Part shown: positions 124 to 63,826 of the stretch, piece after piece
Position numbering within the stretch: the stretch's first letter is position 1
Layout: the number at the start of each line of letters is the position of its first letter
Assembly: GCA_025999335.1 (NCBI GenBank)
Contig: AP024681.1
Coordinates: 615,610-679,609 of the forward strand
DNA: 64,000 nt
Source of the DNA: Candidatus Parcubacteria bacterium
GTDB lineage: Bacteria > Patescibacteriota > Minisyncoccia > UBA6257 > HR35
Direction: 5' to 3'
The notes under the pieces: model-generated
What the model was told of the DNA's origin: nothing
Database searches by the model: none
What the model saw: only the letters and a program-made list of their open reading frames with translations
Position numbers and translations under genes: made by a program

Positions 124-1734
124 ATGGTTGAGAGATTTGGTTATATTAGTTATTTAAGTGAAAATGTTGCTTTCCATTTAGATTTTACTAATATTTTTAT
201 TCTTACCATAGCGATTGTGAACGCTATTTTAGGTTTTACTATTTATTTTAAAAATAGAAAAAGTATTACTAACTTATCCTTTTTTTTAACTTTGATGGCT
301 GTTGTTTTTTGGGGAATTTCTGTTGCTTTTTTTAGAGGTTTTTCAGATAAAGAAACAATCTTACTGTTTTACCGCTTGGCATTCTTTTTTGGTGGTTTAA
401 TATCATTTGTTTTTTATTATTTTTCTTTAGCTTTTCCTTATGATTATTATAATTTTAACAAAACTCAGAAATATTTAATTCCTCTACCGTTTTTAGTTTT
501 AGCTTTTATTAGTTTAACGCCAAATATTTTAGTGATTGATGTTCAAAAAATTCCTGACACTGAAAACATTCTTATTTTTAATCAATATGCTAATATTATT
601 TATATTTTAATATTAATCTTTTATTTTGTGCTTGCTTATTATGTTTTAACTAAAAAATATTGGCAATTTCAGGGTAACTATAAAGATCAAATTTCAAGAG
701 TAATATTTGGTACCTCGATTTCAGTAATTATAGCTTTTTTTACGAATTTAATTTTACCTTCTTTCGGCATTTTTAATCTAAATTGGTTTGGTGCAGTTGC
801 GGTTATTATAATGAGCGTTTCTATATTCCTTTCAATTATTAAATATCATTTATTTAATGTTCAAATTGTTGCTACTGAAATTTTTGTATTTGTTTTATGG
901 ATTTTTACCTTTGTTCAATTTTTAGTTGCTGATTATACAATTTTAAAAATTACTAATGCTTTTCTTTTTTTAGTAATGTTAATTGCCGGTTTGTTATTAA
1001 TCCGTAGCGTTATTAAGGAGGTAGAGCAAAGGAGAGAATTAACTAATTTGAATATACTCAAAAATCAATTTTTATCTTTCGCCTCTCATCAATTGAAAAA
1101 TCCTTTAGCAGTTATTAGAGGTTATGCTCAATTGATGTTAGAAAATAAAGATAACGAAGATAAATTAATAAATTTTTATAAGAAAATCACAAATAAAATT
1201 GATGATCTTTTAAATTTAATAGAGATATTCGTTAATTATAGAAAAATAGAAGAGAAAAAGTTAGATTTTAAATTTGAATTAGTTAATGTCGTTGATCTTG
1301 TTAAAGAAGTTAGCGACGGTATAAAAATTTTGGCTGCAGAAAAAAATTTAGACTTTTCTTTTAAAACTAGTTCTGAGAAAATTATGGTCAAAGTTGATCC
1401 TTTAAAGTTTACTCAGGTCATTCAGAATATTCTTGATAATGCTATTAAATATACACGATCAGGTTTTGTTAGGATAGAAATCTATACGAATGACGATACT
1501 AAAGAAGTTATTATTAAAATAAGTGATTCGGGTATTGGCTTAGATAAAAATGATAAATTAAAATTATTTGATCAATTTTATAGATCAATTAATGTTAAAA
1601 ATTATATCGAAGGTTCGGGGTTAGGTTTATATGTTGCTAAATATATAATTGAAGCGCACAATGGTAAGATTTGGGCAGAATCAGAAGGCATTAATAAAGG
1701 TTCAACATTTTTTATATCATTACCTCTATCATAA
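124..1734 (+). CDS. Membrane sensor histidine kinase (multi-TM N-terminus, HisKA + HATPase_c)
   Basis: H-box 'FLSFASHQLKNPLAVIRGYAQLM'; N/G boxes 'NILDNAIKYT', 'DSGIGL', 'GSGLGLYVAKYIIEAHNGKIWAESEG'; about 7 hydrophobic helices in the first 290 aa. Confidence 0.8.
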   Translation: MVERFGYISYLSENVAFHLDFTNIFILTIAIVNAILGFTIYFKNRKSITNLSFFLTLMAVVFWGISVAFFRGFSDKETILLFYRLAFFFGGLISFVFYYFSLAFPYDYYNFNKTQKYLIPLPFLVLAFISLTPNILVIDVQKIPDTENILIFNQYANIIYILILIFYFVLAYYVLTKKYWQFQGNYKDQISRVIFGTSISVIIAFFTNLILPSFGIFNLNWFGAVAVIIMSVSIFLSIIKYHLFNVQIVATEIFVFVLWIFTFVQFLVADYTILKITNAFLFLVMLIAGLLLIRSVIKEVEQRRELTNLNILKNQFLSFASHQLKNPLAVIRGYAQLMLENKDNEDKLINFYKKITNKIDDLLNLIEIFVNYRKIEEKKLDFKFELVNVVDLVKEVSDGIKILAAEKNLDFSFKTSSEKIMVKVDPLKFTQVIQNILDNAIKYTRSGFVRIEIYTNDDTKEVIIKISDSGIGLDKNDKLKLFDQFYRSINVKNYIEGSGLGLYVAKYIIEAHNGKIWAESEGINKGSTFFISLPLS

Positions 1735-21151: not shown

Positions 21152-21933
21152 AGATTTATATTGGTACATCAGGTTGGCAATATTATCATTGGTATGGTAA
21201 GTTTTATCCGGAAAACTTAAAAGCAAAAGATTTTTTAAATTTCTACGCAAAGCATTTTAAAACCGTTGAAGTTAACACAAGTTTTTATCATTTTACTAAA
21301 GAATCAACTTTTAAAAATTGGTTAAGTCAAGTTCCCAAAAATTTTTTGTTCTCAATCAAACTCCATCGTCTTTTTACTCATTTTCGAAGATTAAAATTAA
21401 AAAAAGAAGATAAAAGAATTTTAAAAGAAACAATTGATGGTTATAAAGTTTTAGGTAAAAATTTAGGAGTAATTTTAATTCAACTACCACCAGGACTTAA
21501 AAAAGATATCAAACTATTAAAAAATTTTTTGAAAATATTAAAAGATATTAGTTCGTATAAGTTCGCGGGTAAAAATGCTGTTCGCAGTAGTTCGCGTTAT
21601 TTTTTAAGATTCGCTATTGAATTTCGCCATAAATCTTGGCTTGATAAAGAAGTTTATAAGATTTTAAAAGAAAATAAAATTGCTTTTGTTATTTCTGACT
21701 CACCGAAATGGCTAACTGATATTGTTAAAACCGCTGATTTTGTTTATGTTCGTTTTCATGGCAAACCAAAGCTTTTTGCTTCAAAATATTCAAAAGAAGA
21801 ATTGAAAGACTATGCTGAGAAAATTAAAAAATTAAAACCTAAAATTTTATTCGCTTACTTTAATAATGATTTTGAAGGTTATGCTGTAGAAAATGCTTTA
21901 CAACTTAAAAGAATCTTAACTATATTAAATTAG
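21148..21933 (+). CDS. DUF72 (YecE-like) family protein carrying an in-frame GTTCGCR repeat insertion
   Basis: 'IYIGTSGWQYYHWYGKFYP', 'EVNTSFYH', 'FRHKSW' are DUF72 hallmarks. Confidence 0.65.
   Translation: MKIYIGTSGWQYYHWYGKFYPENLKAKDFLNFYAKHFKTVEVNTSFYHFTKESTFKNWLSQVPKNFLFSIKLHRLFTHFRRLKLKKEDKRILKETIDGYKVLGKNLGVILIQLPPGLKKDIKLLKNFLKILKDISSYKFAGKNAVRSSSRYFLRFAIEFRHKSWLDKEVYKILKENKIAFVISDSPKWLTDIVKTADFVYVRFHGKPKLFASKYSKEELKDYAEKIKKLKPKILFAYFNNDFEGYAVENALQLKRILTILN
21551..21597. repeat. Short copy of the GTTCGCR repeat element, inside the DUF72 coding sequence
   Basis: gttcgtataaGTTCGCGggtaaaaatgctGTTCGCAgtaGTTCGCGtt; locally GC-rich; reading frame is maintained (encodes SSYKFAGKNAVRSSSRYF). 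Confidence 0.4.
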
Positions 21934-36524: not shown

Positions 36525-38132
36525 ATGATTAAGAAATATTTGCTTATTATTTTTATTATAGTTTTATTATTTTTTGTTAGTTATTTTATTTTTGTAAATA
36601 AAAATTTTGTAAATCAATATATTGAAAATAGTAATAATAACAACATTAAAAATCAAATTCAAACTATTTCAAATATTAATCATCCAAAGATTGTTGAATT
36701 ACAAAATGGAGACTCTTATGATTTAAATATTGATTTTGTAAATCATAATATAAATGGAAAAACTTATCGTATGTTAGCTTATAATGGCAGCATACCTGGG
36801 CCTATCATAAAAGTAAAACAGGGAAGTGAAATCACATTAAAAGTGAAAAACAATACTAATTTTTCTACTCTTTTGCATTCTCATGGTGTTAGATTAGAAA
36901 ACCAATTTGACGGAACACATCTTGTCCAAAAAGAAATTAATCCCGGAGAAACTTTTGCTTATAAAATTAAATTTCCCGATTTTGGTTTTTATTGGTATCA
37001 TCCTCATTTAAGAGAAGATTTGCAACAAGAATTAGGTCTTTATGGAGGTTTTTTGGTTATTCCTTCTAATAATGATTATTGGTTAAAAATAAATAAAGAA
37101 GAGTTTTTATTTTTAGATGATATTTTAATTGAAAATAACAATCTTGTTTTGAATTATGAAAACGCTGATCATACTTTAATGGGAAAATTTGGCAATATTA
37201 TGCTTACTAATGGACAAACATATTATTCTTTAAAAGTTAACAAAGGTGAAGTTATAAGATTTTATATTGTTAACACAGCCAATGTTCGTCCTTTTAATTT
37301 TTCTATTGAAAATACGAAATTAAAATTAATTGGTTCAGATAATGGTTTATACGAGAAGGCACGTTGGGTAGATTCGGTTTTAATTGCGCCTTCAGAAAGA
37401 TATATTGTTGAAGCACTATTTGACAAAGAAGGTAAATTTAAGATTCAAAATAAAACCCCAAATAAGAGTTATGATTTAGGCGAAATTATAGTAGAATCAA
37501 GTTTTACAGATATCTCTTATGCTAATTTTTTTAATAAATTTACGGATTATGAAAAAACAACCAAAGATATAGTGAATTTAAAACAATATTTAGCAAAAAA
37601 ACCTGACAAAGAAATATGGCTTGCAATGAATATGGGTATGATGATGAACAACGAATCTATGGGTATGATGATGACTATGATGAATAATAATATGAACCAT
37701 AATAATCATAATAATAGTATGATGCAAGCAGCAGACAATATAGAATGGGAAGACAGAAATCCATCAATGAATAAAATATCAAATATAAAGAATATTCAAT
37801 GGAAAATTATTGATAAAGAAAATGGTTTAGAAAATATGGATATTCAATGGAAATTTAAAAAAGGTGATTTAGTGAAAATTAGAATTTTTAATGACCCAAA
37901 TTCTATGCATTCAATGCAACACCCTATTCATATTCATGGACAAAGATTTTTAGTTTTAGCTCGTAATGGCGTACAAGAGAATAATTTTGCTTGGAAAGAT
38001 ACGGTTTTAGTGAAAACAGGAGAAACAGTTGATATTTTAGTTGACTTTTCTAATCAAGGTAAGTGGTTAATACATTGTCATATTCCAGAACATATGGAAG
38101 CAGGAATGATGATGCAATTTGAAGTAGAATAA
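36525..38132 (+). CDS. Multicopper oxidase (CueO/CopA-like) with a Met-rich insert
   Basis: Copper-ligand motifs 'HSHGVRL', 'WYHPHLRED', 'HPIHIHGQRF', 'HCHIPEHMEAGMM'; Met-rich 'MNMGMMMNNESMGMMMTMM'. Confidence 0.85.
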   Translation: MIKKYLLIIFIIVLLFFVSYFIFVNKNFVNQYIENSNNNNIKNQIQTISNINHPKIVELQNGDSYDLNIDFVNHNINGKTYRMLAYNGSIPGPIIKVKQGSEITLKVKNNTNFSTLLHSHGVRLENQFDGTHLVQKEINPGETFAYKIKFPDFGFYWYHPHLREDLQQELGLYGGFLVIPSNNDYWLKINKEEFLFLDDILIENNNLVLNYENADHTLMGKFGNIMLTNGQTYYSLKVNKGEVIRFYIVNTANVRPFNFSIENTKLKLIGSDNGLYEKARWVDSVLIAPSERYIVEALFDKEGKFKIQNKTPNKSYDLGEIIVESSFTDISYANFFNKFTDYEKTTKDIVNLKQYLAKKPDKEIWLAMNMGMMMNNESMGMMMTMMNNNMNHNNHNNSMMQAADNIEWEDRNPSMNKISNIKNIQWKIIDKENGLENMDIQWKFKKGDLVKIRIFNDPNSMHSMQHPIHIHGQRFLVLARNGVQENNFAWKDTVLVKTGETVDILVDFSNQGKWLIHCHIPEHMEAGMMMQFEVE

Positions 38133-38199: not shown

Positions 38200-38829
38200 A
38201 TGATCGGATATAAACTGCTAAAGTTATTCAGCATTGTTTTTGTTTTAGTGCCTATTGTTATTATTTTTGCTCATTGTCCGTTGTGTACTGCTGGAGCTGG
38301 AATAGGCGCTTTAATTGCTAAAGAATTAGGAATGAAATCTTCGGCGATTGGGGTTTGGATGGGCGCTTTTAGTGTGGCTTTGGGATGGTGGTTGGGAAAT
38401 GTGGTTATGAAGCGTGCCGCGCGTTTCATCCCCAGAAGCCACCCGTCTGCTGAACAGGCAGGCATAGCCCTCGGCTCGGCATTCGCCGATCGTCTCCGCC
38501 GGAATGAACCGCGTTGGCACGCTTTTCTATTAGTTTCATTAATATTACTATCTTTTCTATCGATTATCTTGCCTCTAAAGCTTTATTTTTATGAAATTGG
38601 ATCTTTTTCAATTTTTTGGTTTGGAGATTATGGAAGTTTGTTTAATCGTACTTATGTTTATGATCAATTTTTACTGGGTTCAATTATTGGAGGATTGATG
38701 ATTATAATTTCAACTTTTATTAGCAAAAAAATCATTCAATTACGTCAAAATAAAATTTTTCCTTATCAAGGTCTTATAATTACTTTTATTTTATTGATAA
38801 TTATTACTATTTTCTTTCAATTTAAATAA
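38200..38829 (+). CDS. Hypothetical membrane protein containing a GC-rich in-frame insertion
   Basis: TM helices; 'HCPLCTAGAG' near the N-terminus. Confidence 0.4.
   Translation: MIGYKLLKLFSIVFVLVPIVIIFAHCPLCTAGAGIGALIAKELGMKSSAIGVWMGAFSVALGWWLGNVVMKRAARFIPRSHPSAEQAGIALGSAFADRLRRNEPRWHAFLLVSLILLSFLSIILPLKLYFYEIGSFSIFWFGDYGSLFNRTYVYDQFLLGSIIGGLMIIISTFISKKIIQLRQNKIFPYQGLIITFILLIIITIFFQFK
38409..38524. repeat. About 115-nt GC-rich (roughly 60% GC) segment with imperfect terminal inverted repeats, inserted in-frame
   Basis: gaaGCGTGCCGCGCG...CGCGTTGGCACGC termini; GC content roughly double the surroundings; encodes KRAARFIPRSHPSAEQAGIALGSAFADRLRRNEPRWHA. Confidence 0.4.
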
Positions 38830-41143: not shown

Positions 41144-41250
41144 GTCGCGAACTAATACAAACTGTACGCGAACCACTGCGAACTATATCAGTATTGTGGT
41201 ATCAAAAAGTTCGCAACAGTTCGCGAGAAGGTTCGCAAGGGTTCGCGATT
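41144..41250. repeat. GTTCGCR repeat element (promoter-proximal copy)
   Basis: tcGCGAACtaatacaaactgtacGCGAACcactGCGAACtatat...aaaaaGTTCGCAacaGTTCGCGagaagGTTCGCAaggGTTCGCGat: GCGAAC units followed by GTTCGC units, forming a large imperfect inverted repeat; 35 nt are near-identical to 42596-42631. Confidence 0.5.
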
Positions 41251-41263
41251 TGCAAATCCAAAA

Positions 41264-43474
41264 ATGAAAAAATATATTTGTCCAATGGGATGCCTTGAGC
41301 CTCAAGATCAGCCCGGAAATTGTCCTGTTTGTGGAATGAAGCTTGTTGAAGTTGAGGAAAAATATCACAAAAAACACAAAGAAAAACACGAAGAACATTT
41401 AGATAAACATCAAGGCCATCGAACTGAAGATTTTCTCAAAAAATTTTGGTTATCTTTGATTTTAACTATTCCGATAGTTCTTTATTCTGATATTTTTCAA
41501 AAAATTAGTAACATAAAATTACCTTCTTTTGAGGGAATTCAATATTTGCCTTTTGGGCAGACAGGTTTAATTATGCTTCTTGGTTCTATTGTCTTTTTTT
41601 ATGGTGGTTTTGTTTTTCTTGTTGGTGCTTATCGAGAAATAAAAGCAAAGAATCCGGGAATGATGACTTTGATTGCTTTAGCGGTAGTATCTGCTTATGT
41701 TTATAGTGTTTTTGCTGTTTTATTCAAAATTGGACATGAATTTTTCTGGGAATTAGCAACCTTAATTACGATTATGCTTTTGGGACATTATTTTGAAATG
41801 AAATCAGTTTCTTCAGCGCAACGAGCTTTACAGGAGATTGAAAAGTTATTGCCTGATATCGCGGAATTAGAAGACGGAAGAAAAGTGAAATTAGATGAAT
41901 TAAAGTTAAATGATATTGTAATTGTTCGGCCCGGAGGAAAGATTCCTGCTGATGGTATTGTTATTGAGGGAAAATCTGAAGTTAATGAAAGTATGATAAC
42001 TGGAGAAAGTAAACCGGTTTTAAAAGAAATTGGTTCAGAAGTCATTGCTGGAACAATTAATGGTGATGGAGTTTTAAAAGTCAAAGTAACAAAAATTGGC
42101 GAAGAGACATTTTTGGCAGGAATTAAAAGATTAATTAAAGAAGCGCAAGCATCAAAATCAAAACTTCAAGTTTTAGCTGATGTTTTTGCGAAATATTTGA
42201 CTTTTATTGCTATAGGTATAGGTTCTTTGAGTTTTATTATTTGGCTTTTGTTACAAAAAAATCTTGCTTTTGCCCTTGAAAGATTGGTAACAGTTTTGAT
42301 TGTTGCTTGTCCTCATGCTTTAGGTTTAGCAGTTCCCTTAGTTGTGGCAATTTCAACATCTTTAGCAATTCATAACGGCTTTTTAATTAGAAACAGATTA
42401 CAACTTGAGCTGGCAAGAAAAATAGATGTTGTTTTATTTGATAAAACTGGGACCTTAACTTCTGGAAGATTTAAGGTAAGAGAAATTATAACGCGAACCG
42501 ATGCGAACAACGATGACAACCGCGAACTTATGCGAACAGATAATGACAAAGTTCGCGAGAGTTCGCAAGAGTTTGCGTCTGAAAACAATGTTCGCAATAG
42601 TTCGCGAGAAGGTTCGCAAGAGTTTGCGATATTACAATTAGCAGCCTCCTTAAATCAATACTCCCAACATTTTATTGCTCAAGGGATTTTAGAAAAAGCA
42701 AAAGAGCAGGGAATTAAACTTTTAAAAGTTGAGGAATTTGAAAATCTAACTGGTAGAGGAGTTAAAGGAAAAATTAATGGAAAAACTTATTATCTTGGCG
42801 GTAATAATTTGTTAAAGGAACTGGGTTACCCGAATGAAAACCGAATAAATTACCCGAATGAAAATCAAATTGGAACAACGGTCTATCTTATTGATGAAAA
42901 TAAAAATCTTTTAGGAGCAATTGTGTTGGAAGATGAAATCCAGGAAGAATCTTTTGAAGCTGTTAAGAATTTACATCAAATGGGAATTAAAGTAGCAATG
43001 ATAACCGGTGATAAAAAAGAAGTTGCTGAAAAAGTTGCCAAGGAGTTAGGAATTGATGAGTATTTTGCTGAAGTTTTACCAGAAGATAAAGTTAATAAAG
43101 TTAAAGAACTTCAAAAAAGAAATTTAAAAGTAATGATGGTTGGCGATGGAATTAATGACGCTCCGGCATTGATGCAAGCTGATGTTGGTGTGGCAATTGG
43201 GGCAGGTACAAATGTGGCTATTGAATCAGCGGGAATAATTTTAGTCAGAAATGATCCAAGAGATATTGTTAAATTAATTGAGCTTTCAAGAAAAACTTAT
43301 CGCAAAATGATTGAAAACCTCTTTTGGGCAACTGGCTATAATATTGTTGCTTTACCACTCGCAGCTGGGATTTTAGCTTTTAAAGGAATCTTTCTTTCCC
43401 CAGCTTTAGCTGCAATCTTTATGTCTCTTTCAACAGTAATTGTTGCTGTTAATGCGTTGGGGTTGAGAGGTTGA
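41264..43474 (+). CDS. copB: Copper-translocating P1B-type ATPase (CPH motif, His-rich N-terminus; CopB-like)
   Basis: 'CPMGC...CPVCGM' N-terminal metal site; His-rich 'KYHKKHKEKHEEHLDKHQGH'; TM 'ACPHALGLA'; 'DKTGTLT', 'GDGINDAPAL', 'MITGD'. Confidence 0.9.
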   Translation: MKKYICPMGCLEPQDQPGNCPVCGMKLVEVEEKYHKKHKEKHEEHLDKHQGHRTEDFLKKFWLSLILTIPIVLYSDIFQKISNIKLPSFEGIQYLPFGQTGLIMLLGSIVFFYGGFVFLVGAYREIKAKNPGMMTLIALAVVSAYVYSVFAVLFKIGHEFFWELATLITIMLLGHYFEMKSVSSAQRALQEIEKLLPDIAELEDGRKVKLDELKLNDIVIVRPGGKIPADGIVIEGKSEVNESMITGESKPVLKEIGSEVIAGTINGDGVLKVKVTKIGEETFLAGIKRLIKEAQASKSKLQVLADVFAKYLTFIAIGIGSLSFIIWLLLQKNLAFALERLVTVLIVACPHALGLAVPLVVAISTSLAIHNGFLIRNRLQLELARKIDVVLFDKTGTLTSGRFKVREIITRTDANNDDNRELMRTDNDKVRESSQEFASENNVRNSSREGSQEFAILQLAASLNQYSQHFIAQGILEKAKEQGIKLLKVEEFENLTGRGVKGKINGKTYYLGGNNLLKELGYPNENRINYPNENQIGTTVYLIDENKNLLGAIVLEDEIQEESFEAVKNLHQMGIKVAMITGDKKEVAEKVAKELGIDEYFAEVLPEDKVNKVKELQKRNLKVMMVGDGINDAPALMQADVGVAIGAGTNVAIESAGIILVRNDPRDIVKLIELSRKTYRKMIENLFWATGYNIVALPLAAGILAFKGIFLSPALAAIFMSLSTVIVAVNALGLRG
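42491..42631. repeat. GTTCGCR repeat element inserted in-frame (about 47 codons) in the ATPase N-domain just after DKTGTLT
   Basis: acGCGAACcgatGCGAACaacgatgacaacCGCGAACttatGCGAACag...aaaGTTCGCGagaGTTCGCAagagtttgcg...atGTTCGCAataGTTCGCGagaagGTTCGCAagagtttgcgat; encodes RTDANNDDNRELMRTDNDKVRESSQEFASENNVRNSSREGSQEFA. Confidence 0.5.
43386..43468. repeat. Left direct repeat (attL-like): the in-gene 3' end of the ATPase
   Basis: 57/57 identity (43412-43468 vs 47615-47671) plus about 25 nt at roughly 80% identity upstream. Confidence 0.55.
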
Positions 43475-56053: not shown

Positions 56054-57457
56054 TTAAAGCTTTTGAGTAATTTTAATAATATTCATATTTTTTCTATCAT
56101 AAACATAATAAATTACATATTTACTATCTGAAGAAAATGCTAAATAAGGTAATATGTAAGGTAATATGTATTCAAATTTTTCTCCTTCTATACCATCAAC
56201 AACAATAAAATTCTGACTATCTTTGCTACTTACTATATAAGCAAAATGCTTGCCATTAGGAGAAAAAGAAAAAAATTTTATATCTTCTGCATCCGGCTCT
56301 TTTTTTTCTTGACCGTCAATTACTATAAAAGAATTATTATCTTTGTAAGCTATATAAGCAAAATGTTTGCTATCTTTAGAAAAATATAAATTCGATATAG
56401 AATCATATTTTGTTTGTTCTTTGTTATTAAGTACTACAAATGCTTTTTTATTTTGAACAGCTACATAAGCAAAATGCTTGCTGTCAGGAGAGAAAGTTAA
56501 AGAAGATACAAGATCATATTTTTTACCTTCTTTACCGTCAAAAATAACGAAATTTTTATTGTCTTTATTGGCAACATAGGCAAAATGTTTACCATTGGGA
56601 GAAAAAATCAATTTATAAATAATAGAATCAGTTTTTTCTTTATTATCTGATATTACGATTTCTTGATTATCTAAAACAAGATAATATTTTTTACATTTTG
56701 CCGTACCTGGATAATGGTTATCGTTTAAACAATTTTGACCTTTTATATAAGCAAAATGTTTACTATCAGGAGAAAAAGTTAAAGAAGATATAAAATCATA
56801 TTTTTTACCTTCTTTACCGTCAACGACAATAAATTGTTTACCATCTTTAGTGGCTATATAAGCAAAATGCTTGCTGTCAGGAGAGAAAGTTAAAGAATAT
56901 ACAAGATCATATTTTTTACCTTCTTTACCGTCAAGAACTACTGCTGCTGTATTGTTTACAAACACTGCATAAGCAAGACGTTTGCTATTAGGAGAAAATA
57001 TTATTGGATACACATGTTCATACTTATATTTTTTTATTTCTTTATTATCTAAAACAACAAAGCGACTACCAAACTCTTCTGCTACATAAGCAAAATGCTT
57101 ACTGTCAGGAGAGAAAGTTATTGTATAAAAAAGTATGTAGTCATATTCTTTCCCTTTTTTATAATCATCTAAAATTATAAAATACTTATTTGTGTTTGTT
57201 TTTACAATAATAGCCGAACGTTTAGAATTATCAGCAATTCGTAGATATGTAGGATACAAATCATTAAAATTAAGCTTATATATTATTTCTTTTGTGATTT
57301 TTTGATTAAGATCATCTGTTTTTTGTTTAGTTAAATTTATTAATTGTTCACTATTATTAGATGTTGAAAATTGTTGCGCCGATGTCGGATTATAATTACG
57401 AGTAAAGATAAACAATAATAAGAAAATTAAAAACAATATTCTTTTATGCTTATACAT
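56054..57457 (-). CDS. Secreted tandem-repeat (beta-propeller-like, PD40/TolB-like) protein
   Basis: Signal peptide; about nine repeats of 'TFSPDSKHFAYIA.KDGK.FIVVDGKEGKKYD'; the repeats are also near-identical at the DNA level. Confidence 0.5.
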   Translation of the reverse strand: MYKHKRILFLIFLLLFIFTRNYNPTSAQQFSTSNNSEQLINLTKQKTDDLNQKITKEIIYKLNFNDLYPTYLRIADNSKRSAIIVKTNTNKYFIILDDYKKGKEYDYILFYTITFSPDSKHFAYVAEEFGSRFVVLDNKEIKKYKYEHVYPIIFSPNSKRLAYAVFVNNTAAVVLDGKEGKKYDLVYSLTFSPDSKHFAYIATKDGKQFIVVDGKEGKKYDFISSLTFSPDSKHFAYIKGQNCLNDNHYPGTAKCKKYYLVLDNQEIVISDNKEKTDSIIYKLIFSPNGKHFAYVANKDNKNFVIFDGKEGKKYDLVSSLTFSPDSKHFAYVAVQNKKAFVVLNNKEQTKYDSISNLYFSKDSKHFAYIAYKDNNSFIVIDGQEKKEPDAEDIKFFSFSPNGKHFAYIVSSKDSQNFIVVDGIEGEKFEYILPYILPYLAFSSDSKYVIYYVYDRKNMNIIKITQKL

Positions 57458-61548: not shown

Positions 61549-61602
61549 AAAATATTTAAAAACAACATTCCAACATTCTTAAGAATGTTGGAATGTTAGC
61601 TT
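61549..61602. repeat. 54-bp repeat containing a perfect 17-bp-arm palindrome (copy 1)
   Basis: aaaatatttaaaaacAACATTCCAACATTCTTAAGAATGTTGGAATGTTagctt. Confidence 0.5.
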
Positions 61603-61767: not shown

Positions 61768-62346
61768 ATGAAAAACGAAATTGAAGCAACATTTCTTTCG
61801 GTTAATAAAGATTCAGTACGAACTAAACTTAAGAAAGCTGGATTTGAACTAAAAACTCCTGAATATTTAATGCGGAGAAAAACTTTTGATTTCTCCCGTG
61901 TTGCGCCAGGCCAAAACAAATGGGGACGTGTTCGTCAGGAGGCAGATATGGTAACGATGACTATAAAGGAAATTCGTGGATCGGGAATTAACGACACTTA
62001 TGAAATTGAACTAATAGTTAACGACTTTGATACTGCCTGTGATTTTTTTGAAGCATGTGGCATTCCTGCGAAAGCGTTTCAAGAAAATATGCGCGAGGTA
62101 TGGACACGTAATGGCGTTGAAGTAACGATTGACACATGGCCTGGGCTAAATCCGTTTGTTGAGATTGAAGGTGAAAACGAAAAGGTTGTTCGGGACATAT
62201 CTAAAGAGCTTGGTTTTGATTTTGAAAAGGCTGTTTTTGGAAGTATTGATCTAATATACGAAAAAGAGCTTGGTATTCCTGCCGAAATAATTATTCGTTT
62301 ACCAGAAATTACCTTTGCTAATCCGCCAAAGAAAAAGGACATGTAA
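61768..62346 (+). CDS. CYTH-like domain protein (class IV adenylyl cyclase/triphosphatase fold), tentative
   Basis: N-terminal 'EIEATFLSV' (EIE.KF motif); GC content visibly higher than its neighbours. Confidence 0.45.
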   Translation: MKNEIEATFLSVNKDSVRTKLKKAGFELKTPEYLMRRKTFDFSRVAPGQNKWGRVRQEADMVTMTIKEIRGSGINDTYEIELIVNDFDTACDFFEACGIPAKAFQENMREVWTRNGVEVTIDTWPGLNPFVEIEGENEKVVRDISKELGFDFEKAVFGSIDLIYEKELGIPAEIIIRLPEITFANPPKKKDM

Positions 62347-63772: not shown

Positions 63773-63826
63773 AAAATATTTAAAAACAACATTCCAATAT
63801 TCTTAAGAATGTTGGAATGTTAGCTT
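63773..63826. repeat. 54-bp palindrome-containing repeat (copy 2; 53/54 identical to copy 1)
   Basis: aaaatatttaaaaacAACATTCCAATATTCTTAAGAATGTTGGAATGTTagctt; the single C-to-T change keeps a G-U pair if transcribed from the + strand. Confidence 0.5.

What the first reader, a model, noticed from the sequence alone, without database searches (positions are those of the whole stretch)
38409..38524. 115-nt GC-rich in-frame insertion with terminal inverted repeats in a membrane-protein gene
Within the AT-rich gene 38200..38829, a block of about 60% GC (GCGTGCCGCGCG…CGCGTTGGCACGC) encodes an Arg/Ala-rich 38-aa loop. The block has no stop codons on either strand, hence the two spurious antisense ORFs 38271..38465 and 38326..38520. 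Its ends are imperfect inverted repeats. It could be a second family of ORF-colonising mini-elements, foreign DNA, or a chimeric assembly.
Basis: seen in the sequence. Interest (0 to 1): 0.5.

Follow-up and report, generated by a model that had tools for sequence, protein, structure and literature searches.

The report
GC-rich hairpin mini-element inside a gene
A 115-base GC-rich, hairpin-forming mini-element sits in frame in a dispensable loop of a copper-operon membrane protein of a very AT-rich hot-spring Parcubacteria genome; related copies lie in other genes and between genes, so it resembles the "selfish DNA inside genes" known from Rickettsia and yeast mitochondria.

Summary
Window 38410-38524 is 64-65% GC in a 26.4% GC window, the strongest composition outlier in 64 kb. 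Its ends form a stem of about 21 bp. It adds about 34 residues to a loop of a CPLC-motif membrane protein.

It is not a chimera or random foreign DNA. It belongs to a small family, here called "type A", about 90 nt long:
- The core is a conserved three-way junction.
- The outer stem differs in sequence between copies but stays complementary: 11 of 28 pairs show compensatory changes.

Copies occur at four unrelated sites in related hot-spring Parcubacteria: this loop, two positions in a copper P-type ATPase, and one intergenic site. They are read in two different frames. The window copy also carries a nested 21-nt hairpin, "H", found elsewhere in unrelated contexts.

Near-identical orthologous genes carry type A, a different element (type B, in either orientation), a B/A remnant, or nothing at this loop.

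Best reading: an RPE-like or mitochondrial-GC-cluster-like palindromic mini-element that is translated in a permissive loop. How it moves, and which strand (RNA or single-stranded DNA) is active, are unknown. The lack of stop codons is explained by GC content alone. A functional RNA role in copper loci is not excluded.

The parts
38200..38829 (+). Host gene: 209-aa CPLC-motif polytopic membrane protein with no Pfam family. It belongs to a copper-resistance gene cluster: the multicopper oxidase is upstream at 36525..38132, and relatives also have CsoR, DUF411 and a Cu P-type ATPase nearby.
38410..38524 (+). Type A GC-rich palindromic mini-element, 115 nt including the nested hairpin. It encodes residues 71-108 (KRAARFIPRSHPSAEQAGIALGSAFADRLRRNEPRWHA).
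   Evidence: (covariance model hit 85.9 bits, E = 4.5e-17)
38410..38431 (+). Left arm of outer stem P1 (AAGCGTGCCGCGCGTTTCATCC).
38501..38524 (+). Right arm of outer stem P1 (GGAATGAACCGCGTTGGCACGCTT).
38432..38474 (+). Conserved P2 region (CCAGAAGCCA ... CATAGCCCTCGG). Its apical loop is interrupted by hairpin H.
38442..38462 (+). Nested 21-nt hairpin module H (CCCGTCTGCTGAACAGGCAGG). It is absent from the otherwise homologous copies in L001, L002 and L019. Near-identical 21-mers lie in unrelated contexts in L003 and L015.
38476..38489 (+). P3 hairpin (TCGGC-ATTC-GCCGA). In L004 and L026 a different hairpin (GTGC-TAAC-GCAC) takes its place.
38490..38500 (+). Junction strand containing CTCCGCC. 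It is invariant in all copies and unpaired in the consensus structure.
38271..38520 (-). Two antisense ORFs (38271..38465 and 38326..38520). They are spurious by-products of the low stop-codon frequency in GC-rich DNA.

Best explanation
The block is one copy of a small family (type A) of GC-rich, hairpin-forming mini-insertion elements carried by AT-rich hot-spring Parcubacteria.

**Shown:**
- The element is about 90 nt. It has a sequence-conserved core with two small hairpins and a conserved junction strand (CTCCGCCGGAA).
- The core is closed by a 17-21 bp outer stem whose sequence drifts but whose pairing is kept.
- It lies at several unrelated places, inside ORFs and between genes.
- Inside ORFs it is read through in whichever frame it landed, adding an Arg/Ala/Pro/Ser-rich loop.
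- The window copy has a second, 21-nt hairpin module nested in its P2 loop.
- The host loop between TM2 and TM3 tolerates any of several unrelated inserts, or none.

**Inferred:**
- The element spreads or is exchanged at the DNA level by copy-and-paste or gene-conversion-like events, as proposed for Rickettsia palindromic elements and yeast mitochondrial GC clusters.
- It survives only where the protein tolerates an extra surface loop.
- Its high GC reflects the need for a single-stranded form (RNA or ssDNA) to stay folded in a 26% GC organism living at about 52 °C. A tRNA in a relative reaches 59% GC in a 25% GC genome.
- The peptide itself has no function.

**Unknown:** the enzyme or process that moves the element, and which strand is the active one.
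For: **1. A family with conserved structure.**
- Eight distinct copies fold alike.
- On the model-fitted alignment, 97.7% of cells pair, against 30-39% when partners are slid.
- 11 of 28 pairs change on both sides, against 1-3 in slid controls. Covariation score is 0.43 against 0.04-0.09, and 0 of 500 shuffles reach it.
- RNAalifold on an unfitted MAFFT alignment gives 9 of 26 compensatory pairs.
- Each copy's own arms pair at -28 to -33.5 kcal/mol; arms swapped between subfamilies pair at only -7 to -18.
- The core is more conserved (0.77-0.96 identity) than the arms (0.55-0.72).

**2. Dispersed copies.**
- CPLC loop: window, L001, L002, L019, L004, L005, L014, L017, L020, L026.
- Cu-ATPase site 1: L008, L010, L023.
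- Cu-ATPase site 2: L017 2712-2798.
- Intergenic: L015 1196-1284.
- The flanks of these four sites are unrelated.

**3. The peptide is not conserved.**
- The core is read as FIPRSH... in the window and as SSPEA... in L004, L008 and L017.
- The insert peptide has no homologue among 1.84 billion representatives; the single hit is an unrelated GC-rich repeat.

**4. Presence/absence and turnover.**
- Most homologues lack any insert; an empty site is seen in L027.
- Three genes with near-identical flanks (about 90% or more by eye from the alignment; not computed) carry type A, type B, or a B-left/A-right remnant.
- Type B occurs in both orientations at this loop.

**5. Nesting.**
- The 21-nt H module is inserted exactly in type A here and in type B in L015.

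**6. Permissive loop.**
- In the AlphaFold model, pLDDT is 51-55 over residues 81-100, the centre of the insert (residues 71-108), while most transmembrane helix blocks score 90 or more.

**7. Not an artefact.**
- HiFi assembly plus independent assemblies.
Against: - Only one copy lies in the 64-kb window, and none was found in a further 71 kb of related genomes. High copy number is not shown.
- Every copy found without bias lies in or beside copper or metal genes. This could point to a function or to local exchange rather than genome-wide mobility.
- There is no consistent target-site duplication.
- No transposase was looked for or found.
- The arms are the least conserved part, the opposite of classical MITEs.
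- At the CPLC site the element has diverged about as much as its flanks (0.80-0.88 against 0.74-0.83). That particular insertion may therefore be old and vertically inherited.
- The covariation counts rest on eight related sequences, and partly on a model-fitted alignment.
Confidence: 0.66

Rival explanations
1. It is a functional structured RNA tied to copper-resistance loci. It could act in cis in the mRNA (stability, translational pausing, thermosensing) or as an antisense RNA. On this view the ORF location is incidental.
For: - The core is conserved and the stems covary, as in functional RNAs.
- All copies recovered by unbiased DNA pattern search lie in or next to copper or metal genes: the CPLC gene, the Cu-ATPase, and an intergenic site beside DoxX-like and cupredoxin-like genes.
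- All four sites have the same orientation relative to the host or downstream gene.
- The antisense strand folds 5-15 kcal/mol better and carries the G·U pairs in all eight copies.
Against: - No Rfam family matches.
- Positions within the genes are not conserved: three different places in two proteins.
- Close orthologues do without it, or carry an unrelated element at the same place.
- The copper bias is partly an ascertainment effect. The search pattern was derived from copper-locus copies, and most held loci are centred on that operon.
- Four same-orientation sites give only P of about 0.06-0.12.
Confidence: 0.13
2. It is not mobile. It is a lineage-specific loop expansion that arose once, became palindromic by hairpin-templated mutation, and spread between nearby copper genes only by ectopic gene conversion or recombination.
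For: - The element and its flanks have diverged to a similar extent between the window, L001 and L004.
- The two ATPase copies and the CPLC copy lie within a few kb of each other (L017).
- No target-site duplication and no transposase were found.
Against: - The intergenic L015 copy lies in a different locus.
- Type B occurs in both orientations at the same loop, and type D occurs both inside and outside the gene.
- The exact 21-nt H module lies in three unrelated contexts.
- Genes with near-identical flanks (about 90% or more by eye; not computed) carry different inserts.
Confidence: 0.13
3. It is foreign DNA: a fragment of a GC-rich organism (for example the host of this likely epibiont) captured during repair or horizontal transfer.
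For: The GC content is 64%, against 26% for the genome.
Against: - No donor was found in plasmids, phages or E. coli.
- No donor was found in GTDB species genomes or JGI metagenomes. The GC-rich matches share only the searched words.
- The palindromic three-way architecture with compensatory changes, and the recurrence at several sites, are not expected of a random fragment.
Confidence: 0.04
4. It is an assembly chimera or sequencing artefact.
For: This exact 115-nt version, with hairpin H, is on record from a single contig only.
Against: - The source is a PacBio HiFi assembly.
- The reading frame is kept.
- The same element lies at the same codon position in independent Logan and JGI assemblies.
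Confidence: 0.02

Closest known systems
Rickettsia palindromic elements (RPEs; Ogata et al. 2000, from my own knowledge; summarised in PMC10969869)
   Same: - Palindromic elements of about 100-150 bp in a small, AT-rich genome.
- Inserted in frame into unrelated protein-coding genes and translated as extra segments compatible with the fold.
- Also found between genes.
- The mobility mechanism is unknown.
   Different: - RPEs encode a conserved peptide in one frame; type A is read in two frames with no conserved peptide.
- RPEs are not strongly GC-enriched relative to their host.
- RPEs reach tens of copies per genome; few copies have been seen here.
- Different phylum.
- Here the core is conserved while the arms covary.
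GC clusters of yeast mitochondrial DNA (PMC8811140)
   Same: - Short GC-rich palindromes in a very AT-rich genome.
- In-frame insertion polymorphism in a coding gene (var1).
- Mostly intergenic but also in ORFs.
- 'Dynamic merger and shuffling' of clusters, which matches the nested and composite arrangements here: H inside A, H inside B, and the B-left plus A-right remnant.
- They act as recombination and deletion hot spots.
   Different: - Organellar and shorter (about 30-60 bp).
- Flanked by AG/TAG repeats taken as target duplications; none is seen here.
- Hundreds of copies per genome.
Bacterial MITEs (Correia, ERIC, Nezha and others; PMC10969869)
   Same: - Small non-coding elements with inverted-repeat ends.
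- Can fuse in frame with host ORFs.
   Different: - MITE ends are the conserved part, because transposases bind them; here the ends are the least conserved part.
- No target-site duplication.
- No cognate IS identified.
byp elements of Magnusiomyces mitochondria (translational bypassing; cited in PMC8811140)
   Same: GC-rich hairpin inserts inside ORFs of an AT-rich genome that remain in the mRNA.
   Different: byps break the frame and are skipped by the ribosome. Here every in-ORF copy keeps the frame open, and no matching take-off and landing codons are seen.
REP/BIME elements with RAYT transposases; IS200/IS605-derived palindromic elements (from my own knowledge)
   Same: - GC-rich hairpins that act as single-stranded DNA.
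- Strand asymmetry.
   Different: - These are extragenic and shorter.
- They need a Y1 transposase, which was not sought here.

Membership tests
MITE | Terminal inverted repeats | tested here: met
   The arms form about 21 bp.
MITE | Inverted-repeat ends conserved between copies (transposase binding sites) | tested here: not met
   Arm identity is 0.55-0.72 against core identity 0.77-0.96. The arms covary.
MITE | Target-site duplication | tested here: inconclusive
   No direct repeat flanks the window, L004 or L008 copies. Short AT-rich repeats at L015 (AGTTTA/AGTTTTA) and L017 (TATTA) could be chance.
MITE | Many dispersed copies per genome | tested here: inconclusive
   Two copies lie on one 7-kb contig (L017) and one in the 64-kb window. 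Four sites are known across samples. Whole genomes could not be scanned.
MITE | Cognate autonomous IS with matching ends | not tested
   Transposase genes were not surveyed.
Rickettsia palindromic elements | Palindromic element of about 100-150 bp inserted in frame in ORFs and tolerated by the protein fold | tested here: met
Rickettsia palindromic elements | Conserved encoded peptide read in a single frame | tested here: not met
   Two frames are used (FIPRSH and SSPEA).
Rickettsia palindromic elements | Sequence homology to RPE families; Rickettsiales host | tested here: not met
   The host is Candidatus Parcubacteria. Sequence similarity to RPEs was not compared directly.
Yeast mitochondrial GC clusters | GC-rich palindrome in an AT-rich genome, with in-frame insertion polymorphism in a coding gene | tested here: met
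Yeast mitochondrial GC clusters | AG/TAG terminal repeats; mitochondrial location | tested here: not met
   The flanks show no such repeats, and the genome is bacterial.
Described structured RNA families (Rfam 15) | Covariance-model match | tested here: not met
   Nothing relevant at E up to 10 in 38200-38750, and no gathering-score hit in the whole window.
Translational bypass (byp / T4 gene 60 type) | Insert breaks the frame or carries stops; matched take-off and landing codons | tested here: not met
   The frame stays open in every in-ORF copy. No matching codons are visible.
REP/RAYT or IS200/IS605-derived palindromic elements | Extragenic hairpins plus a Y1 transposase in the genome | not tested
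   Location is mostly intragenic. Y1 transposases were not searched for.

The most novel reading that the evidence does not exclude
Type A, together with its companions B, D and H, could be a previously undescribed class of structured mobile element in Patescibacteria. On this reading the conserved three-way-junction core, not the ends, is what gets recognised or is catalytic. That would make it an RNA- or ssDNA-level self-mobilising or enzyme-guided module able to nest into the loops of other copies. Alternatively, the core could be a functional RNA motif specific to copper-resistance loci. Three observations fit this reading better than a plain MITE: the core is conserved while the stems covary, the folding is strand-asymmetric, and the 21-nt H module inserts exactly with no duplication.
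Probability: 0.12. Interest if true: 0.8.

Novelty: new variant of a known kind. Interest (0 to 1): 0.55.

Why it matters
**If the reading is right:**
- Streamlined, AT-rich Patescibacteria carry GC-rich palindromic mini-elements that colonise protein-coding genes. This would be a third, independent case of the phenomenon, after Rickettsia palindromic elements and mitochondrial GC clusters, and the first in a lineage usually thought to be almost free of mobile DNA.

**Practical consequences:**
- These inserts inflate and diversify predicted proteins.
- They create spurious antisense ORFs.
- They can mislead homology clustering and the annotation of "hypothetical" CPR proteins.

**Open question made testable:**
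- The conserved core with covarying stems gives a concrete, searchable model (a 92-position covariance model). It could be used to ask what moves such elements, which is still unanswered for RPEs.

Tried and rejected
- **Rfam:** region at E up to 10 and whole window at gathering scores. Nothing relevant. No tRNA or tmRNA.
- **blastn of the block:** plasmids, phages and E. coli genomes gave only a 41-nt chance match.
- **Exact 20-mer CTCCGCCGGAATGAACCGCG:** no hit in species genomes or viral contigs. The source genome is evidently not among the representatives.
- **Viral-contig scans for H and for the core:** only chance hits in GC-rich contigs.
- **Six-frame peptide query against 5.8 billion proteins:** no hit at E up to 10. 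This is uninformative, probably because of word-index and bias filters.
- **38-aa insert peptide against 1.84 billion representatives:** one irrelevant repeat protein.
- **Stop-codon depletion:** not significant for the window copy. The L008 and L015 copies are open in all six frames (P about 0.01), but they are not independent of each other.
- **Target-site duplications:** none consistent.
- **Hammerhead, twister, attC, retron and bypass-like readings:** considered from memory and dropped, because their diagnostic motifs are absent from the sequence.
- **Extra 71 kb from relatives:** no further type A copy.

Full report
**1. The observation**

The window is very AT-rich (26.4% GC). The stretch 38410-38524 is 64-65% GC. 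It is the most GC-rich 115-nt window in the 64 kb, about 5.8 standard deviations above the mean. The sequence occurs once in the window.

Its ends are inverted repeats. The exact seed is AAGCGTGCC/GGCACGCTT, extended by folding to about 21 bp: AAGCGTGCCGCGCGTTTCATCC with GGAATGAACCGCGTTGGCACGCTT. Both strands fold far better than shuffles. The sense strand gives -50.9 kcal/mol (z = -4.5) and the antisense strand -58.7 kcal/mol (z = -3.75), with 0 of 200 shuffles folding as well in each case.

The block lies in frame in ORF 38200..38829.

Three of six frames are open, as expected for this composition (P = 0.36). The two antisense ORFs are therefore by-products.

**2. Source and host gene**

The protein is identical to a hypothetical protein of "Candidatus Parcubacteria bacterium KatS3mg097", on a 680-kb contig. 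The KatS3 MAGs come from PacBio HiFi sequencing of Katase hot-spring sediment at 52 °C (PMC9671151).

The gene encodes a polytopic membrane protein with an invariant AHCPLCT motif and no Pfam family. It sits in a copper-resistance cluster:
- The multicopper oxidase is directly upstream.
- Relatives also have CsoR, DUF411 and a Cu P-type ATPase nearby.

Distant homologues are 172-182 aa and have only about KKKIN between TM2 and TM3. The window protein has about 34 extra residues there.

An AlphaFold model built on that alignment gives pLDDT of 90 or more for most transmembrane helix blocks. It gives 51-55 for residues 81-100, the centre of the insert.

**3. The block belongs to a family**

GC-island scans of orthologous loci and a covariance model found homologous elements, here called type A, about 90 nt long.

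All copies share a core: ...TC(A/G)TCCCCCGAAGCC(A)CACAGCCCTCGG-hairpin-C(N)CCTCCGCCGGAA(T/C)GA...

The outer arms differ in sequence between copies but remain complementary within each copy:
- Window: GCGTGCCGCGCGTTTCATCC
- L004: AAAGCGGTTTGCCCTCGACTCATCC
- L008: ATGTTCCCCTCGACTCGTCC
- L015: TTGTTTCCCTGCGGCTCGTCC

Each copy's own arms pair at -28 to -33.5 kcal/mol. Arms swapped between subfamilies pair at -7 to -18.

RNAalifold on an unfitted MAFFT alignment finds 9 of 26 pairs with compensatory changes.

On the model-fitted alignment of eight distinct copies:

| Measure | Observed | Slid controls |
|---|---|---|
| Cells paired | 97.7% | 30-39% |
| Pairs changed on both sides | 11 of 28 | 1-3 |
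| Covariation score | 0.43 | 0.04-0.09 |

This alignment leans towards the structure, and the sequences are few and related.

The third hairpin (TCGGC-ATTC-GCCGA) is replaced in L004 and L026 by a different hairpin (GTGC-TAAC-GCAC).

**4. Copies at unrelated sites, in two frames**

A 22-base gapped pattern was searched in JGI metagenomes and in 185,579 species genomes. In AT-rich DNA it returned only true family members. The hits in GC-rich genomes share nothing beyond the searched words.

Together with the model search, four sites emerge:
- (a) The CPLC loop: window, L001, L002, L019, L004, L005, L014, L017, L020, L026.
- (b) The Cu-ATPase after LLPDVAEV: L008, L010, L023.
- (c) The Cu-ATPase after DKTGT...EIIPIDFRLLDDI: L017 2712-2798, on the same 7-kb contig as a CPLC copy.
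- (d) An intergenic position upstream of a DoxX-like gene and a cupredoxin-like gene: L015.

The flanks of these sites are unrelated.

The core is translated as FIPRSH... in the window, L001 and L002, and as SSPEA... in L004, L008 and L017. The nucleic acid is therefore what is conserved, not the peptide. The peptide has no homologue among 1.84 billion representative proteins.

**5. Nesting and turnover**

The window copy differs from L001, L002 and L019 by an exact 21-nt insertion, CCCGTCTGCTGAACAGGCAGG at 38442-38462, in the P2 loop.

The near-identical 21-mer CCTGTCTGCCGAACAGGCAGG lies in two other places:
- Inside a different element (type B) in L015, again as an exact 21-nt insertion when compared with the type B copy in L003.
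- In the N-terminal region of the L003 orthologue.

At the same protein loop, other orthologues carry other inserts:
- Type B (about 105 nt), forward in L003 and L006 and reversed in L035.
- Type D in L007; the same element is intergenic in L033.
- Yet other inserts, or none.

Three genes whose flanks look about 90% or more identical in the alignment carry type A (L004), type B (L006), or a remnant made of 13 nt of the B left end plus 17 nt of the A right end (L033). The flank identity was judged by eye from the alignment, not computed.

The loop is thus a permissive landing or exchange site with fast turnover.

Between the window, L001 and L004, the element has diverged about as much as the flanking gene. 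This particular insertion may be old.

**6. Which strand, RNA or DNA?**

All four sites have the C-rich strand in the sense orientation of the host or downstream gene.

In all eight copies the antisense (G-rich) strand folds 5-15 kcal/mol better and holds the G·U pairs, 1-6 against 0-1. The exception is the nested H, which has its G·U pairs on the sense strand.

This could mean that the antisense strand is the selected form. It could equally mean that only the orientation giving the weaker mRNA structure is tolerated in ORFs. I cannot decide between these.

In a relative with 25% GC, the only GC island in 17 kb is a tRNA of 59% GC. GC islands in these genomes therefore mark nucleic acid that must stay folded.

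**7. Interpretation**

The best-supported reading is a GC-rich palindromic mini-element. In Section 5 it behaves like Rickettsia palindromic elements (in-frame, translated, tolerated; PMC10969869). It also behaves like yeast mitochondrial GC clusters (GC-rich palindromes in AT-rich DNA, in-frame var1 polymorphism, merger and shuffling; PMC8811140).

It is not a member of either family. It also fails a MITE criterion: the ends are the least conserved part and no target duplication is seen.

The mechanism of spread is inferred, not shown.

Three caveats keep a functional-RNA reading and a local-gene-conversion reading alive:
- Few copies have been found.
- All are near copper or metal genes.
- All have one orientation.

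A chimeric assembly and captured foreign DNA are not supported.

**8. Verdict**

This is a real feature. I class it as a new variant of a known kind. I found no description of such elements in Patescibacteria in the searchable literature. Interest is moderate.

Noticed in passing
window 41165-41250, 42490-42630, 21546-21605: Arrays of units about 10-11 nt long, GCGAAC on the left and GTTCGC(G/A)A on the right, in inverted arrangement. One array lies upstream of the Cu-ATPase gene (41264..43474). One lies inside that ORF just after the DKTGT motif, the same variable site where L017 carries a type A copy. One lies at 21.5 kb. Relatives have analogous arrays: CGCAGA, translated as 'TQINAD', in the L008 ATPase, and GTCCGCGTA in the L004 DUF411 gene.
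   Followed up: partly
L003 2612-2716, L006 10188-10292 (forward); L035 2840-2952 and L015 about 1040-1170 (reverse): A second GC-rich element family (type B, about 105 nt) occupies the same protein loop in either orientation, in frame both ways. It also lies between genes next to a type A copy.
   Followed up: partly
L007 10208-10365; L033 560-727: A third GC-rich element (type D) lies inside the CPLC loop in one genome and in the intergenic region upstream of the CPLC gene in another.
   Followed up: no
L008 14843-17515 (Cu P-type ATPase, 890 aa against 729-770 aa in relatives): This ATPase carries at least five lineage-specific insertions made of short repeats and GC-rich elements, adding about 120-160 residues while keeping the frame.
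   Followed up: partly
L006 4121-4191 and 12626-12668: Another small hairpin family (GAACCG..CTTTGCTCTGGTTC) lies in the Cu-ATPase and in a NAD-binding reductase gene. GC-rich hairpin inserts are therefore not confined to copper genes.
   Followed up: no
window 61549-61602 and 63773-63826: Two 54-nt copies, 98% identical, each with a palindromic core (AACATTCCAA[C/T]ATTCTTAAGAATGTTGGAATGTT; one central mismatch in the second copy), bracket a 2.2-kb segment. The segment holds a relatively GC-rich 192-aa ORF (61768..62346) and a 348-aa ORF. They could be terminators or the ends of a small mobile unit.
   Followed up: no
window 56232-57133: Eight copies of a 53-nt unit, spaced 111-117 nt apart with one 171-nt spacing. 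This is probably a repeat-domain protein gene.
   Followed up: no
L034 3548-3625: In a relative with 25% GC, the only GC island in 17 kb is a tRNA (59% GC). This is a useful calibration for reading GC islands in these genomes as structured nucleic acid.
   Followed up: yes
L007 1747-3819: The Cu-ATPase is called as two genes (432 aa plus 237 aa) with a 60-nt gap. It may be a frameshift, a disruption, or another insert.
   Followed up: no
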